A DNA stretch of 62,163 nucleotides from an uncultured Candidatus Saccharibacteria bacterium (GTDB taxonomy: Bacteria > Patescibacteriota > Minisyncoccia > Phycocordibacterales > VMEP01): assembly GCA_964579635.1 (NCBI GenBank), contig CAZOFV010000005.1, forward strand, positions 1 to 62,163, read 5' to 3'. Under the pieces are notes generated by a model, which was not told the origin of the DNA, did no database searches, and saw only the letters and a list, made by a program, of their open reading frames with translations. The position numbers and the translations under genes are program-made. Numbering within the stretch: the stretch's first letter is position 1; the number at the start of each line of letters is the position of its first letter. Positions 21,880-56,711 of the stretch are shown here, in pieces.

Positions 21880-22494
21880 ATGGATTCACGAGATAAATTA
21901 GAACGCCTTTTCGCGATGTTTCCAGGAATCGGACCACGCCAAGCTAAACGGTTTGTTTATTTTTTATTAACCAGAAATTCAAGTTTTACTTCTGAGCTTG
22001 CCATCGCCCTCGGAGATCTTAAAAAAAATATTTCTCAATGTAATTCTTGTTACAGATTTTTTCCAAACGATAATAATACAGCCTGCCAAGTTTGCCGAAG
22101 TGCAAACACCGACCAAAAAACAATTCTTATTGTTGAAAAAGATGTCGATTTTGAAAATGTTCACAAAAGTGGATTTTATAATGGTCGCTTTTTTGTTCTT
22201 GGTGGATTATTGCCAATACTTGAAGAAGAGCCGGCAAAAAAAATACGCGCTCGTGAATTAGTCGCTGAAGTTCTTCGCCAAGCAGAAACTGGAAACCTAA
22301 AAGAAATAATTATTGCGCTTTCTTTAAACGGAGAAGGTGAAAATACTTACCAATATGTTAAAGGGATTCTCCAGCCAATAACTCAAAAATACTCTATTGG
22401 GTTAAGCACCCTCGGTCGCGGACTCTCCACTGGTTCCGAAATTGAATACTCCGACGGCGAAACCTTGAAGTACGCAATTGAAAATAGGAAATAA
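21880..22494 (+). CDS. recR: Recombination mediator RecR
   Basis: PGIGPRQA HhH motif, C4 zinc finger, Toprim IVEK. Confidence 0.93.
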   Translation: MDSRDKLERLFAMFPGIGPRQAKRFVYFLLTRNSSFTSELAIALGDLKKNISQCNSCYRFFPNDNNTACQVCRSANTDQKTILIVEKDVDFENVHKSGFYNGRFFVLGGLLPILEEEPAKKIRARELVAEVLRQAETGNLKEIIIALSLNGEGENTYQYVKGILQPITQKYSIGLSTLGRGLSTGSEIEYSDGETLKYAIENRK

Positions 22495-22520
22495 AAAATC
22501 ACCCGTTTGGGTGATTTTTT
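22493..22520. terminator. Bidirectional terminator recR/rplU
   Basis: AAAAAATCACC-CGTTTG-GGTGATTTTTT. Confidence 0.8.
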
Positions 22521-22884
22521 ATTTTATCTTCTCAATAGTGACCTTAAAGAAAGGTTGTCTGTGTCCTCTAATCTTTAAATATCGGCTCTTTGCCTTGTAC
22601 TTCATTACCTCAACCTTCTTTGCTTTTCCAATCTTGGTCAAAGCTCCTGTAACCTTTGCTCCATCGATATAAGGAGTTCCGATAGTGGTATTCTTTCCAT
22701 CATCAACCAATAAAACCTTGTCGAAAACGACAGCGTCGCCTTCCTTGTGATCCCCAAGAATCTTTTCGACAGTAACAACATCACCAACCGCAACACGATA
22801 TTGCTTTCCACCGGTCTTTATAACGGCAAATTCTGTTGATTCTGCCTTCTTTGCTGGGGTTTTCTTACTGACTACCATAGACAC
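22519..22884 (-). CDS. rplU: 50S ribosomal protein L21
   Basis: FAVIKTGGKQYRV, GHRQPF. Confidence 0.96.
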   Translation of the reverse strand: MSMVVSKKTPAKKAESTEFAVIKTGGKQYRVAVGDVVTVEKILGDHKEGDAVVFDKVLLVDDGKNTTIGTPYIDGAKVTGALTKIGKAKKVEVMKYKAKSRYLKIRGHRQPFFKVTIEKIK

Positions 22885-22942
22885 ACTATTTTACATAAAG
22901 GACGCCGAAACGCAAGCTGGTAGCACTTAGAGTGCTTAATTT

Positions 22943-22971
22943 TTGACAAATTTATCTTTGCGTGCTATTTT
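22943..22971 (+). promoter_or_regulatory. Sigma70-type promoter
   Basis: TTGACA, 17-nt spacer, extended TGcTATTTT. Confidence 0.65.
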
Positions 22972-22977
22972 TGGTTG

Positions 22978-23077
22978 GTATCAGCTCCTTCGGAAGCAGA
23001 GAACCGAAGGCCTTCACCTCCCAACGCTGGTACACTTTGCCCCCGCCCTCCTCCCCTTTGGGCGCGGGGCTTTTTTT
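22978..23077 (+). ncRNA. Putative ~100-nt small RNA
   Basis: Bounded by promoter and GC stem + T7 terminator; no start codon; GTATCAGC/GCTGGTAC and CCTTCGG/CCGAAGG stems. Confidence 0.6.
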
Positions 23078-23224
23078 ATTATTTTGTCTAATGTAATCAG
23101 TAGGAACAAGATAATAATCCCGTACCAAAAACCCTCTATTTTGAAGGAAAAGTTAAGATAACCACTTAATTAAAAGTTTTGTTTTTTGGTATCGGGATCA
23201 GGATATTATTCTCTTTTATTTTGT

Positions 23225-24283
23225 CTACTCGTCGTCTTTTTCTGGACCTTCAAGCAAAGAAACTTCGAACCCTGGGCTTGTGCCGGCAATTCTTAAAACA
23301 TCCTTATCAACCTTCTTCAATTCTTTACTTGAAGTGTTGTAGTGATTAACCGCGGTCTGAAGCGTATTACCTAAGCTTCCGTGAGACTTTTCATATGCTT
23401 TTAAGTGTTTGCCTAACTCCTCAACTCTTTTAACAATATCTTTTGCTGTTTCTTCAATCTGCATAGCTTTAAGTCCCTGAAGAACTGTTTGTAGGTATGC
23501 GAGGAATGATGTCGGCGAAACAATAATGACGCGATACTTCCCTGCCGCGCGTTGTATTAAATTCTCTTCATTTTCCTTAACTGCGCCGACTTTGTTCACA
23601 AGCAAATCATAATAAATCGCTTCGTGTGGAATAAACATAAAAGCAAAATCCATCGTGCCTTCGTTTGGGCGAATATATTTTGCTGTTTCTGTAATACGTA
23701 GTTTTAAATCATTTTCAAAAACCTTCGCGAGCCGTTCGCGTTCCGCCGGATTTCTTTCCTCAACAATACGATTATAGTTCTCAAGTGAAAACTTAGAATC
23801 AACAGGGATTATTTTATCTTTCACAAAAACCGCAGCATCAACAATCTCTCCGTCAGAAAAAGCATACTGCATTTGATAGCTCCCTGGTGGCATGACGTTC
23901 TTAAGCAGTGTTTCAAGATAATATTCACCCAAAATTCCACGTTGTTTTGGGTTCTTTAAAATATCCTGTAAAGATTGAAGTTGATCGGTAACAGAAATAA
24001 CCTGCTTGTTTGTCTCATCAAGGCGGGTTAATTTCTCTGTTATATCGCGAATTAAGCTCTGTGATTCGCCAAACTGATGCCGAACGGCAGCCTGCATTTC
24101 TTTATTCGACTCCCCCAGCTTGTCGTCCATTGTTCTTGCAAGGGTCGCAAGTTGATTCTGAATTAAAAGAAGACTGTCTGTTTCAACGGATGGTTTTTGA
24201 GATTGCCCGCGCAAAATAATCCAAACAATAAAAGCTCCGATAACAACCCCAATTACTAAAAATAAAATAGTACCTGACTCCAT
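23225..24283 (-). CDS. rmuC: DNA recombination protein RmuC
   Basis: N-terminal TM, coiled coil, KQRGILGE, PVDSKF, DFAFMFIP, IVSPT. Confidence 0.92.
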   Translation of the reverse strand: MESGTILFLVIGVVIGAFIVWIILRGQSQKPSVETDSLLLIQNQLATLARTMDDKLGESNKEMQAAVRHQFGESQSLIRDITEKLTRLDETNKQVISVTDQLQSLQDILKNPKQRGILGEYYLETLLKNVMPPGSYQMQYAFSDGEIVDAAVFVKDKIIPVDSKFSLENYNRIVEERNPAERERLAKVFENDLKLRITETAKYIRPNEGTMDFAFMFIPHEAIYYDLLVNKVGAVKENEENLIQRAAGKYRVIIVSPTSFLAYLQTVLQGLKAMQIEETAKDIVKRVEELGKHLKAYEKSHGSLGNTLQTAVNHYNTSSKELKKVDKDVLRIAGTSPGFEVSLLEGPEKDDE

Positions 24284-25716: not shown

Positions 25717-25744
25717 TTGACAAATCCTTGTTTTCTGTTATGAT
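25717..25744 (+). promoter_or_regulatory. Sigma70-type promoter of ORFan 25774
   Basis: TTGACA, 16 nt, TGtTATGAT. Confidence 0.65.
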
Positions 25745-25773
25745 ATAAAAAGGTCCATTAAAGGAGATTTGTC

Positions 25774-26010
25774 ATGACGACAGATGCTTTTCATCGGAAA
25801 GTTTCAGGAGAGGTCTTCGAAAAAATGACGTCAGCGAGGCTGACTTCGTTTAACGAAAGTGATTTTTACAAAGCCCTCTACCCTATTCTGAAGAAGGAAA
25901 ATGCTTTCGACGGAAGAACGTATCACGGGCGGAAAATCAGACCGCTCGTCGAGAAGATGTTCGTCGAGTTTCAACAGGAACAAGAACCAAGTAATTTCGT
26001 TCTGACCTGA
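25774..26010 (+). CDS. 78-aa ORFan
   Basis: AAAGGAGA 6 nt before ATG; own promoter and terminator. Confidence 0.75.
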   Translation: MTTDAFHRKVSGEVFEKMTSARLTSFNESDFYKALYPILKKENAFDGRTYHGRKIRPLVEKMFVEFQQEQEPSNFVLT

Positions 26011-50924: not shown

Positions 50925-51491
50925 ATGAAAGCAACCAGGGCAAACGCCCAAGTAGCACAGGAATCAACCGAGAAACTCCGTCCAGTTTCCCCGCTCGTGC
51001 AACGGGAGCTTCCCCCGACGATAGAAGTAAACGTCAGGGTACCCAAAGAAGGCTTGATTAACGAACGGATCCTCATCGTTGGGACGTATATCACCCCGCG
51101 AATTGATGACCAGGGCGGACAACACGGCGGAGACGACATTCTCGTCATGGTAAACAGCGCACGTGGCAGGATTGACGAGGAAATCGAAATTTCCGGGAAA
51201 GTTCGGATTCACACGGTGAACGGGCGTAACGGAACAATGCCCGATGAATTCATCGGGGTCCAGATTATCGGCTTCCTGAGCACTATCGGGAAAGGCTTTG
51301 CGACGAACAACGAGCAACTTCCGATTCCCGAAAATATCCCGATTCTCGAGCTCATCGAAACCATCCACGAAATGGAGAATATCGTTGTCGACGAAAGGCA
51401 ACAACGACTGCTCTCTGCCCTTGCGCAAAGCGACATCGGCAAGGCCCGGCTCGACATTCGGAAGTATTTCCGTCCGTTGCCCCCGGCCTGA
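50925..51491 (+). CDS. 188-aa ORFan
   Basis: AGGAGA RBS, GC-rich codons, terminator follows. Confidence 0.8.
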   Translation: MKATRANAQVAQESTEKLRPVSPLVQRELPPTIEVNVRVPKEGLINERILIVGTYITPRIDDQGGQHGGDDILVMVNSARGRIDEEIEISGKVRIHTVNGRNGTMPDEFIGVQIIGFLSTIGKGFATNNEQLPIPENIPILELIETIHEMENIVVDERQQRLLSALAQSDIGKARLDIRKYFRPLPPA

Positions 51492-56039: not shown

Positions 56040-56711
56040 TCAGAAAACAGGCGTCTTAACTTCATCAGAGTACATGTAGTTGAAGTTTCTGAGTGCCCTC
56101 GCGGTCATACTCCTTTCTTGAGAGCCAAGAAAATTCAAGACTTCATCGGCATGAAATTTTTCTCGGAGAATTTCTTGCCGTTCCACAAACCTCGGACAAA
56201 CAGACCTCAGTACGATAACGGCGCTGCCAAACGATTTCGACATCAGCTGAAAGGCCCGGCTAAACCAATCGTCCTTCCCATCCGAAGACTTGGCGAGCCC
56301 TTTATACAAACTGGTGCCAAGGTTGGCCACGTATTCAAGAGATCGTGGCTCGTGCCGATTAAGACTCCTCTCCGGGAAAAAAGCTACGTACTGCAAGCTC
56401 ATGTCAGCGACATCTTGAACACAAACTTGGTCAATTTTTGATATACCGAAAACATACTGGTAAAAATCAAAAGCTGACAACTGCTCGAAAAGTTCCGCCC
56501 GACCCATAAAACGGTTGAGCATTGTGGCGAGATAGTCCCTGACCATCTCGTCAACGGGTACCCTTGATTTTGTGCACGCTTCACTCAAAAGCAGATACCA
56601 CTGATGCTCTGGAGACTCTGCGCGCACAAACCCCATTTCGTTTAACGTCTGAAAACTAGCTTCTTTTTTTACATCTTCTGGCTTAGCGAGAACAACCATA
56701 TTATTATCCAT
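56040..56711 (-). CDS. 223-aa helical hypothetical protein in its own expression unit
   Basis: AAAGGAGA RBS, TTTACA-16-TACGAT promoter (56774-56747), GC-richer codons. Confidence 0.8.
   Translation of the reverse strand: MDNNMVVLAKPEDVKKEASFQTLNEMGFVRAESPEHQWYLLLSEACTKSRVPVDEMVRDYLATMLNRFMGRAELFEQLSAFDFYQYVFGISKIDQVCVQDVADMSLQYVAFFPERSLNRHEPRSLEYVANLGTSLYKGLAKSSDGKDDWFSRAFQLMSKSFGSAVIVLRSVCPRFVERQEILREKFHADEVLNFLGSQERSMTARALRNFNYMYSDEVKTPVF

What the first reader, a model, noticed from the sequence alone, without database searches (positions are those of the whole stretch)
22943..23077. Candidate ~100-nt small RNA exposing anti-Shine-Dalgarno motifs
Seen: TTGACA-17-TGcTATTTT, then a transcript with no start codon. 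GTATCAGC/GCTGGTAC closes a domain holding CCTTCGG/CCGAAGG, followed by a GC terminator and T7. The unpaired linker contains TCACCTCC (23014-23021), matching the canonical 16S anti-SD, and the terminator loop has CCTCCTCCCC. Known: C-rich loop sRNAs block translation by pairing with SD sequences. Inference: where few native genes carry an SD, such an RNA would selectively target SD-bearing mRNAs (the ORFan cassettes, phage or host mRNAs). It is transcribed divergently from rplU.
Basis: partly seen in the sequence, partly recalled or inferred. Interest (0 to 1): 0.75.

Follow-up and report, generated by a model that had tools for sequence, protein, structure and literature searches.

The report
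C-rich small RNA gene in Parcubacteria
The flagged spot is very likely a real ~100-base non-coding RNA gene that displays C-rich, ribosome-binding-site-complementary loops, a design known from other bacteria but seen here in an uncultured groundwater Parcubacterium whose own genes hardly use such binding sites.

Summary
These are a near-consensus extended -10 promoter, a ~98-nt transcript without ATG or GTG, a closed 5' domain, UCACCUCC in an unpaired linker, and a GC terminator whose 11-nt loop reads UCCUCCCCUUU.

Related groundwater Paceibacterota strains carry the same kind of unit between rplU and rmuC, in at least nine sequence variants. Across them the promoter elements, the hairpins (with compensatory changes) and unpaired C-rich motifs are kept, while the rest is replaced. 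The invariant core is UCCC(C), not strictly CCUCC.

No Rfam family reaches its threshold. The nearest models are all C-rich-loop sRNAs: anti-hemB scores up to 42.9 bits in relatives and 15 bits here, and sX13 and ar14 score weakly.

The window's genes show Shine-Dalgarno (SD) signal at background level and look largely leaderless. The few SD-bearing genes have no known relatives (ORFans).

No RNA-seq data, no convincing target and no 16S sequence could be obtained.

Verdict: this is a new, lineage-specific member of the known class of C-rich-seed regulatory sRNAs. The idea that it selectively silences SD-bearing mRNAs is plausible but untested.

The parts
22943..22948 (+). -35 box TTGACA
   Evidence: It is invariant in 12 of 13 allelic variants while the spacer sequence differs.
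22963..22971 (+). Extended -10 box, TGcTATTTT
   Evidence: TGCTA is kept in all variants except C, which has TGTCA.
22978..23077 (+). Predicted ~98-100 nt non-coding transcript. The start is inferred as 7 nt after the -10 box and the end as the U7 tract.
   Evidence: Fold. There is no ATG or GTG inside. Alleles differ by indels that are not multiples of 3 and by whole-body replacement. Transcription was not shown.
22978..22985 (+). 5' arm of the closing helix (GUAUCAGC)
   Evidence: Allele A2 has GUGCCAGC/GCGGGCAC, an A-U to G-C compensatory change. The U-G pair fits only the + strand.
22987..23010 (+). Inner hairpin CCUUCGG-AAGCAGAGAA-CCGAAGG
   Evidence: It is identical in alleles A and A2.
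23011..23025 (+). Unpaired linker CCUUCACCUCCCAAC, the first C-rich seed candidate
   Evidence: CACCUCCC recurs unpaired in alleles D and E, CCUCCCCUCCC in F1, UCCCC in C and CCCCC in B. Strain variant C23025T lies outside the motif.
23026..23033 (+). 3' arm of the closing helix (GCUGGUAC)
23039..23070 (+). GC-rich terminator hairpin with an enlarged 11-nt loop UCCUCCCCUUU (23049-23059), the second C-rich seed candidate
   Evidence: Nine terminator variants keep UCCC(C) in an 11-18 nt loop, with compensatory stem changes G-C/A-U/U-A.
23071..23077 (+). U7 tract of the intrinsic terminator
   Evidence: The T-run follows the hairpin only on the + strand.

Best explanation
This is a lineage-specific, independently transcribed regulatory small RNA of about 98 nt on the + strand.

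A near-consensus sigma-70 promoter with an extended -10 box drives it, and a GC hairpin followed by U7 ends it. The RNA folds into a closed 5' domain plus a terminator hairpin. It presents two single-stranded C-rich stretches: CACCUCCC in a linker and UCCUCCCCUUU in an unusually large terminator loop.

By analogy with cuckoo/CcsR, sX13, Burkholderia double-hairpin/anti-hemB and staphylococcal UCCC sRNAs, these stretches most likely act as seeds. They would pair with G-rich, Shine-Dalgarno-like sequences in the 5' regions of a small set of mRNAs and lower their translation or stability.

Almost all genes of this organism lack an SD, so only a few mRNAs could be hit. The best candidate seen is an SD-bearing ORFan of 142-179 aa. 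It sits directly upstream of the unit in sister strains and is absent from this window.

Shown computationally: the gene anatomy, its conservation, the covariation and the exposure of the motifs. Inferred: transcription, base-pairing, the targets and the direction of regulation.
For: - Anatomy is at the stated coordinates.
- Homologous units lie between rplU and rmuC in 28 loci fetched through L21 cluster members, giving 13 distinct sequences in about nine variants. The -35 box, TG and -10 box are kept while the spacer varies. Bodies are replaced, but each long form keeps a closed hairpin domain and an unpaired C-rich motif. All terminators keep UCCC(C) in an 11-18 nt loop.
- Compensatory changes occur in the closing helix (A versus A2), in the D versus D2 hairpins, and in the upper terminator stems (G-C, A-U, U-A).
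- G-U pairs fit only the + strand.
- Control: among 48 unrelated promoter-plus-GC-terminator units found with a motif-blind pattern, 3 have a C-rich motif in the terminator loop and none have it in both loop and body. In this family the figures are 12 of 13 and 10 of 13.
- A descriptor requiring a stem of at least 6 bp, a loop of at least 8 nt holding UCCCC or CCUCC, and T6 finds nothing else in about 1.3 Mb of window plus loci.
- Nearest Rfam models are all C-rich-seed sRNAs: anti-hemB at 42.9, 39 and 35.8 bits in relatives (E 8e-7 to 8e-5), and sX13, ar14 and the toxic sRNA weakly.
- Mechanistic precedent is in PMC4615179 and PMC5688073.
- The ORFan 5' UTRs in relatives carry AAGGAGGA, AAGGGGGA or AAGGGAGAG. 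They pair with the loops at -15 to -23 kcal/mol, against -13 or weaker for all 67 start regions in the window.
Against: - No expression data could be found.
- No convincing target lies in the 62-kb window.
- Pairing with the neighbouring ORFan is not allele-specific, and that ORFan is absent here.
- CCUCC itself is not universal. Terminator T2 and unit F2 have only UCCCC or UCCC. Short alleles B2 and F2 expose a C-rich motif only in the terminator loop.
- The fold z-score of the single sequence is only -2.2.
- In an organism that hardly uses SD, and whose 16S may lack the anti-SD (PMC9297842), 'SD blocking' may not be the relevant effect.
- No RNA chaperone is known for this group.
Confidence: 0.55

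Rival explanations
1. It is a neighbour-specific regulator, antitoxin-like or cassette-linked. The RNA would exist to control the SD-bearing ORFan (142-179 aa) that lies directly upstream in sister strains, and the window's copy would be an orphan left after that gene was lost.
For: The ORFan and the unit are adjacent and co-oriented in L087, L096-L103 and L105. The ORFan always has a strong SD and a 5' UTR complementary to the loops at -15 to -23 kcal/mol. Both are confined to the same narrow clade, and the locus is hypervariable.
Against: The unit is present without the ORFan in the window, L083, L085, L086, L089, L104 and L106. There is no allele-specific match between seed and SD. The ORFan is not a small hydrophobic toxin and has its own terminator. 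It has no PADLOC, PHROG or Pfam hit.
Confidence: 0.12
2. It is a protein- or ribosome-binding RNA, a decoy or sponge. The exposed C-rich stretches or the conserved AAGCAGAGAA loop would bind a protein or the ribosome rather than mRNAs.
For: No mRNA target was found in the window. The inner hairpin and its purine loop are identical between alleles A and A2 while the closing helix changed. UCACCUCC equals the 16S 3' tail sequence (established knowledge).
Against: The bodies, including that hairpin, are completely replaced in alleles B to F, and only the C-rich motifs persist. That pattern is typical of base-pairing seeds. No candidate binding protein is encoded nearby.
Confidence: 0.12
3. There is no RNA function. 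A chance or decaying promoter-like sequence would sit next to a hairpin that merely insulates convergent rmuC transcription from divergent rplU transcription.
For: There is no transcript evidence. The hairpin lies 14-150 nt from the rmuC stop codon. The single-sequence statistics are weak.
Against: The -35, TG and -10 boxes are kept while the spacer diverges. On the rmuC strand the hairpin is followed by AAAGUG, not a U-tract. Loops of 11-18 nt with a conserved UCCCC are not needed for termination and are rare in control units. Tandem duplication in L102 and L103 and compensatory changes in the body helices also argue against it.
Confidence: 0.1
4. It encodes a small protein: the ORFs at 22943-23161 (+, 72 aa), 22962-23096 (+, 44 aa) or 22952-23128 (-, 58 aa).
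For: The ORFs exist mechanically. The N-terminus of the minus-strand ORF is partly readable in L085.
Against: The + strand ORFs start inside the promoter, and there is no ATG or GTG after the predicted start. Alleles differ by non-triplet indels and body swaps. The three window-versus-L085 differences in the minus ORF are all non-synonymous, and the ORF is cut by a stop in L085.
Confidence: 0.02
5. It is a divergent housekeeping RNA such as SRP RNA, 6S, RNase P or tmRNA.
For: The size and GC-rich structure fit, and GGAAGCAG loosely recalls SRP helix 8 (my own first impression).
Against: No Rfam hit appears even at E of 10 or below. Strains with identical rplU carry unrelated bodies, which is incompatible with an essential conserved RNA.
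Confidence: 0.01

Closest known systems
Cuckoo RNAs (alpha-r14/CcsR family, Rfam RF02344) of Alphaproteobacteria
   Same: They are modular small RNAs made of hairpins with very variable stems, whose large loops (9-27 nt) carry a C-rich anti-SD motif. They are often tandemly repeated and often sit next to a small gene of unknown function (PMC4615179). The window's terminator contains the exact motif CCUCCUCCC (23047-23055), and L102 and L103 carry two tandem units.
   Different: The host is a different phylum. RF02344 scores only 16.2 bits against a threshold of 58.8. The first motif lies in a linker, not a hairpin loop. The conserved core here is UCCC(C), and the last module doubles as the terminator.
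Burkholderia anti-hemB RNA (ncS04, Rfam RF02837) and the betaproteobacterial double-hairpin 'toxic small RNAs' (RF02278, e.g. ncS27)
   Same: Both have a hairpin with a CU-rich loop (model consensus UCUCCUCCCUG) followed by a terminator. Their CU-rich unpaired stretches are complementary to ribosome binding sites, their expression is confirmed, and ncS27 overexpression slows growth (PMC1950547, PMC5688073). RF02837 is the best Rfam match for sister alleles, at 42.9, 39 and 35.8 bits with E down to 8e-7.
   Different: All scores are below the gathering score of 49.5, and the window's allele reaches only 15 bits. The hosts are unrelated, so convergence is as likely as homology. Here the terminator loop itself carries a motif.
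sX13 of Xanthomonadaceae (Rfam RF02232)
   Same: It has C-rich loops on several hairpins and is cited as motif-related to cuckoo RNAs (PMC4615179). It is the best + strand Rfam hit for the window's copy.
   Different: It scores 18.5 bits against a threshold of 50 (E 0.26), so no membership can be claimed.
Other C-rich-seed sRNAs: staphylococcal UCCC-motif Rsa RNAs and RsaE/RoxS, the actinobacterial 6C RNA, and Neisseria NmsR tandem sRNAs
   Same: They share the design principle of unpaired C-rich motifs in loops that pair with G-rich or SD regions (PMC4615179, PMC5688073, PMC1950547; the RsaE details are from my own knowledge).
   Different: No sequence or covariance-model similarity was detected. 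Their hosts use SD-led initiation widely, and this one does not.

Membership tests
Cuckoo RNA / ar14 (RF02344) | Covariance-model score at or above the gathering score (58.8 bits) | tested here: not met
   16.2 bits, E 0.73, for window 22965-23075. L102 scores 18.1 bits.
Cuckoo RNA / ar14 (RF02344) | Two to four adjacent hairpins, each loop carrying CCUCCUCCC (PMC4615179) | tested here: not met
   The terminator hairpin holds CCUCCUCCC, partly in its stem. The other hairpin loop is AAGCAGAGAA, and the first C-rich motif lies in a linker. Alleles T2 and F2 lack the motif.
Cuckoo RNA / ar14 (RF02344) | Alphaproteobacterial distribution | tested here: not met
   The host is Paceibacterota/Parcubacteria.
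anti-hemB (RF02837) | Covariance-model score at or above the gathering score (49.5 bits) | tested here: not met
   The window scores 15.0 bits, E 0.54. Sister alleles score 42.9, 39 and 35.8 bits, which is significant but below threshold.
sX13 (RF02232) | Covariance-model score at or above the gathering score (50 bits) | tested here: not met
   18.5 bits, E 0.26.
Betaproteobacteria toxic small RNA (RF02278) | Covariance-model score at or above the gathering score (50 bits) | tested here: not met
   No hit in the window at E of 10 or below. L102 scores 19.4 bits.
Functional class: trans-acting sRNA with C-rich seed | Own promoter and intrinsic terminator, with no coding potential | tested here: met
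   The promoter boxes are conserved across alleles.
Functional class: trans-acting sRNA with C-rich seed | C-rich motif(s) unpaired and conserved among homologues | tested here: met
   Mean unpaired probability at the motifs is 0.66-1.0 in the long alleles. The motif is present in 12 of 13 terminator loops, against 3 of 48 controls.
Functional class: trans-acting sRNA with C-rich seed | Complementary G-rich or SD sites in the 5' regions of target mRNAs | tested here: inconclusive
   The best of 67 start regions in the window reaches -13 kcal/mol. The neighbouring ORFan of relatives reaches -15 to -23 kcal/mol, without allele specificity. Only about 9% of a ~0.7-Mb genome was available.
Functional class: trans-acting sRNA with C-rich seed | The RNA is expressed and changes target translation or stability | not testable with these tools
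   No RNA runs hold the sequence, and the organism is uncultured.
Housekeeping RNAs (SRP, 6S, RNase P, tmRNA, tRNA) | Match to the Rfam or ARAGORN model | tested here: not met

The most novel reading that the evidence does not exclude
In a Parcubacterium that initiates translation almost without Shine-Dalgarno pairing, the ribosome may even lack the anti-SD tail, as in about half of Parcubacteria (PMC9297842). In that setting, a hypervariable and horizontally exchanged small RNA carrying an anti-SD mimic (UCACCUCC/UCCUCCCC) could act as a gatekeeper for the rare SD-bearing mRNAs: ORFan cassettes and incoming phage or foreign genes. That would be translation-level discrimination between 'native' leaderless messages and 'foreign' SD-led ones. 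The cassette-like turnover of alleles would then reflect an arms race.
Probability: 0.1. Interest if true: 0.85.

Novelty: new member of a known kind. Interest (0 to 1): 0.48.

Why it matters
My literature searches found no base-pairing regulatory sRNA described for Patescibacteria/CPR. This one would be a clean, comparatively supported example and would extend the recurrent C-rich-loop sRNA design to a very distant lineage with a minimal genome.

The context makes it more than routine in two ways. The host's genes show no SD signal above background, so an anti-SD-like seed has very few possible targets. The locus also evolves by exchange of whole RNA cassettes between strains whose flanking genes are nearly identical.

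If targets could be defined, it would offer a handle on post-transcriptional control, and possibly on the handling of foreign genes, in organisms that cannot be cultured.

Tried and rejected
- **SRP RNA or another housekeeping RNA.** The GGAAGCAG stretch suggested SRP helix 8, but there is no Rfam hit and the body is not conserved. Rejected.
- **Sequence search next to rplU.** blastn and nhmmer of the unit against 80 species-level relatives (L21 at most 72% identical) found nothing. By eye, those with rmuC-rplU synteny have a short spacer or another gene there.
- **Loose terminator patterns in IMG/VR.** These gave only generic terminators, either 119 or more hits or 4 hits in high-GC phages. 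A pattern anchored on promoter plus TCCC gave 4 unrelated hits. There is no sign that the unit is phage-borne.
- **Motif-blind metagenome scan.** A promoter-plus-GC-terminator pattern returned 59 hits, of which only 2 were family members. I used it as a control set. The collection evidently misses some JGI contigs known to hold the unit, so it does not prove a narrow distribution.
- **Co-variation between the neighbouring ORFan's SD and the seed of its own strain.** No allele specificity was seen.
- **Genome-wide-style target scan of the window.** The top hits lie inside coding regions and none is compelling.
- **Small-ORF reading.** Rejected; see the rival explanations.
- **The 137-nt downstream segment as a repeated MITE.** It is single-copy and locus-specific.
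- **A family covariance model.** MAFFT alignments of terminators and of the long alleles were not structurally consistent, so I built no model and ran no count of structure pairs. Compensatory changes were read directly from the sequences and single-sequence folds.
- **A 16S 3' end.** None was found in any fetched locus.

Full report
**1. The observation**

The region reads exactly as described. The promoter scan reports TTGACA (22943-22948), a 17-nt spacer and TATTTT (22966-22971), preceded by TG. That is 10 of 12 matches and the strongest promoter-like site in 22000-24000.

Folding 22972-23077 gives -40.3 kcal/mol, with z = -2.24 against dinucleotide shuffles. The predicted elements are:
- A closing helix of GUAUCAGC (22978-22985) with GCUGGUAC (23026-23033).
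- An inner hairpin of CCUUCGG with CCGAAGG, loop AAGCAGAGAA.
- A 15-nt unpaired linker, CCUUCACCUCCCAAC (23011-23025).
- A GC-rich terminator (23039-23070) with an 11-nt loop UCCUCCCCUUU, followed by U7.

With a start about 7 nt after the -10 box, the transcript is roughly 98 nt and begins at the first base of the closing helix. It contains no ATG or GTG. The mechanical ORFs that overlap it start inside the promoter or lie on the other strand.

rplU (22519-22878, minus strand) is divergent and starts 64 nt from the -35 box. rmuC (23225-24283, minus strand) converges from the other side.

**2. Not a known RNA**

At gathering thresholds Rfam finds only two tRNAs in the window. A relaxed scan of 22850-23250 gives only weak + strand hits:
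- sX13, 18.5 bits against a threshold of 50.
- ar14, 16.2 bits against 58.8.
- anti-hemB, 15.0 bits against 49.5.

All three models describe sRNAs with C-rich loops. No SRP, 6S, RNase P or tmRNA signal appears.

**3. Who carries it**

L21 relatives identify the host as a groundwater and rock Paceibacterota (Parcubacteria), close to 'Parcubacteria group bacterium LiPW_30'.

In 80 species-level genomes whose L21 is at most 72% identical, the unit is not detectable. This holds by sequence search and by eye upstream of rplU, even where rmuC-rplU synteny is kept.

I fetched contigs through exact L21 cluster members with 84-100% identity. This gave 28 loci, and the same kind of unit sits between rplU and rmuC in those that reach far enough upstream, on the strand opposite to rplU. 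They comprise 13 distinct sequences in about nine variants.

| Variant | Loci | Body | Terminator loop |
|---|---|---|---|
| A | window, L082, L097-101 | as in the window | T1: UCCUCCCCUUU |
| A2 | L086, L088, L090-093 | same body, changed closing helix | T2: CGUUUUUCCCCUUUGUUU |
| B | L087 | short hairpin with loop UGCCCCC | T2 |
| B2 | L096 | short hairpin with loop CGCC | T1 |
| C | L083, L084 | hairpin CUCA-UCCCC-UGAG | UUAUCCUCCCCU |
| D, D2 | L085, L104, L106-108 | unpaired ACCUCCCUUC | CUACCUCCCCCUUCCCUUU |
| E | L089, L094, L095 | loop UCACCUCCCUG | UUCCUCCCCCUUG |
| F1 + F2 | L102, L103 | two units in tandem | |

**4. What is conserved**

- The -35 box, the TG and the -10 box persist while the spacer diverges.
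- Every long allele has a closed hairpin domain with an unpaired C-rich motif.
- Every terminator has an unusually large loop of 11-18 nt that holds UCCC(C).
- The mean unpaired probability at the motifs is 0.66-1.0 in the long alleles.

Helices are maintained by compensatory changes:
- In the closing helix, A-U becomes G-C between alleles A and A2.
- In the 5' hairpin, A-U becomes G-C between D and D2.
- In the upper terminator stems, G-C, A-U and U-A alternate.
- The inner stems of E and F1 differ completely under a common outer stem, GGGUUGC with GCAACCC.
- U-G pairs are compatible only with + strand RNA.

The strictly shared element is UCCC(C). CCUCC is present in most alleles but absent from terminator T2 and unit F2.

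**5. More than chance**

I scanned metagenomes with a motif-blind pattern of a strong promoter followed 72-102 nt later by a GC terminator. It returned 59 loci, two of which were family members.

| Set | C-rich motif in terminator loop | In body | In both |
|---|---|---|---|
| 48 unrelated distinct units | 3 | 6 | 0 |
| This family (13 sequences) | 12 | not counted separately | 10 |

A structural descriptor required a stem of at least 6 bp, a loop of at least 8 nt with UCCCC or CCUCC, and T6. It finds only this locus in about 1.3 Mb of window plus loci L001-L108.

**6. An unusually mobile locus**

The alleles do not follow the flanking genes:
- L096 and L097 have identical rplU DNA but carry alleles B2 and A, which are 58% identical.
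- L086, L087 and L089 have 97% identical rplU but carry A2, B and E, which are 48-62% identical.
- The window and L097 differ by 9% in rplU but by only 2% in the RNA.

Promoter, body and terminator modules occur in different combinations. Examples are A with T1, A2 with T2, B with T2 and B2 with T1.

In several strains a 142-179 aa ORFan with its own promoter and terminator lies between rplU and the unit. It has a strong SD and no Pfam, PHROG or PADLOC match, and it is found only in this clade. In others, rmuC is replaced by an unrelated 400-aa protein.

A 137-nt segment just downstream of the terminator (23079-23215) is present or absent between strains. It is flanked by the direct repeat TTATTTTGTCTA.

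**7. The translational context**

For 67 gene starts in the window:

| Feature | Gene starts | Random positions |
|---|---|---|
| SD 4-mer at -16 to -4 | 4 of 67 (6.0%) | 6.4% |
| -10-like box 5-10 nt before the start codon | 21 of 67 (31%) | 8.8% |

Duplex energies with an anti-SD probe are no better than background. Many messages, rplU among them, therefore look leaderless.

The three clear SD-bearing genes start at 25774, 50925 and 56711. All three are ORFans.

Published work reports that the 16S anti-SD motif is detectable in only 48% of Parcubacteria (PMC9297842). No 16S was available here to check this organism.

**8. Targets**

No start region in the window pairs well with either motif. 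The best reaches -13 kcal/mol against a median of -5.4. The best sites anywhere in the window lie inside coding sequences.

The ORFan 5' UTRs of sister strains carry AAGGAGGA, AAGGGGGA, AAGGAGAG or AAGGGAGAG. They pair at -15 to -23 kcal/mol, but without a match between a strain's own seed and its own SD.

No RNA-seq run holding the sequence could be listed. Transcription is therefore unproven.

**9. Comparison with known systems**

Relaxed Rfam scans of sister alleles give significant but sub-threshold hits to anti-hemB (RF02837). The scores are 42.9, 39 and 35.8 bits, with E from 8e-7 to 8e-5. The alignment covers a hairpin with loop CCUCCCCUCCCUU plus the terminator.

- Anti-hemB was proposed as a non-coding RNA ending in a terminator (PMC1950547). 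It is expressed in B. cenocepacia as ncS04.
- The related 'double-hairpin' toxic sRNAs carry CU-rich unpaired stretches complementary to ribosome binding sites, and they affect growth (PMC5688073).
- Cuckoo RNAs are modular hairpins with CCUCCUCCC loops, variable stems and tandem copies. Their authors consider such families (cuckoo, sX13, RepG, staphylococcal Rsa) analogous rather than homologous (PMC4615179).

The present RNA works like these by design but meets none of their membership criteria. I therefore file it as a new, lineage-specific member of the known class of C-rich-seed sRNAs.

**10. Verdict**

A base-pairing role for the C-rich motifs on G-rich or SD-like sites is the best-supported mechanism, at about 0.55 overall.

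The attractive idea that the RNA selectively silences SD-bearing ORFan or foreign messages in an SD-free host is compatible with the data. It rests only on context, and I give it about 0.1 in its strong form.

Literature searches for sRNAs in Patescibacteria found nothing comparable.

Noticed in passing
window 23079-23215 (direct repeats at 23079-23090 and 23216-23227): A 137-nt segment lies between the RNA's terminator and the rmuC stop codon and is present or absent between strains. It is absent in X5, X8, X10, L083 and L097, and present in the window, L085, L089, L102 and L103. It is flanked by the direct repeat TTATTTTGTCTA and contains the inverted repeat CCCGTACCAAAAA / TTTTTGGTATCGGG. 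It is single-copy in the window and found only at this locus, so it is either a deletion between repeats or a small insertion. It is 93% identical between strains whose sRNA bodies are unrelated.
   Followed up: partly
window, all gene starts (e.g. rplU at 22878, with TAAAAT ending 9 nt before its ATG): Translation signals are unusual. The SD 4-mer frequency upstream of 67 starts equals the random background (6.0% versus 6.4%). Meanwhile 31% of starts have a -10-like box 5-10 nt upstream, against 8.8% at random. This suggests mostly leaderless mRNAs.
   Followed up: partly
window 25717-26010 (+); also 50925-51491 (+) and 56040-56711 (-): The only clear SD-bearing genes in the window are ORFans without Pfam, PHROG or PADLOC matches. 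The 78-aa one (25774-26010) is driven by the only other TTGACA-N14-TGnTA promoter in the window (25717-25744).
   Followed up: partly
L087, L096-L103, L105 (e.g. L097:1840-2334, minus strand of the locus): A clade-restricted ORFan of 142-179 aa is inserted between rplU and the sRNA unit in sister strains. It has a basic C-terminus, its own promoter, a ~75-nt 5' UTR, a strong SD and its own terminator. It has only 6 protein clusters in a database of 5.8 billion.
   Followed up: partly
L086, L088, L090-L093 (e.g. L086:1092-2294): In some strains with the same L21 protein, rmuC is replaced by an unrelated 400-aa protein of unknown function. The whole rplU-rmuC interval is a hotspot of gene and RNA cassette exchange.
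   Followed up: no
L102 and L103 (two units, about 130 nt apart start to start): The small RNA unit is tandemly duplicated. A long form has promoter TGCTATAAG, and a short form has promoter TGCTATTTT. This suggests two paralogous types that were differentially lost in other strains.
   Followed up: partly
window 22922-22942 (+): A small perfect hairpin, AGCACT-TAG-AGTGCT, is followed by TAATTTTT immediately upstream of the sRNA -35 box. It looks like a terminator on the + strand but has no + strand gene before it. It may be a remnant of the cassette present in sister strains.
   Followed up: no
L242, L248, L252, L268, L270, L279, L281, L288 (metagenome hits): An unrelated conserved unit occurs in organisms of higher GC (0.49-0.57). 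It has a strong promoter, about 110 nt of sequence, and a terminator whose loop holds UCCCCCC or UCCUCCC. It may be another C-rich-loop sRNA or a small ORF.
   Followed up: no
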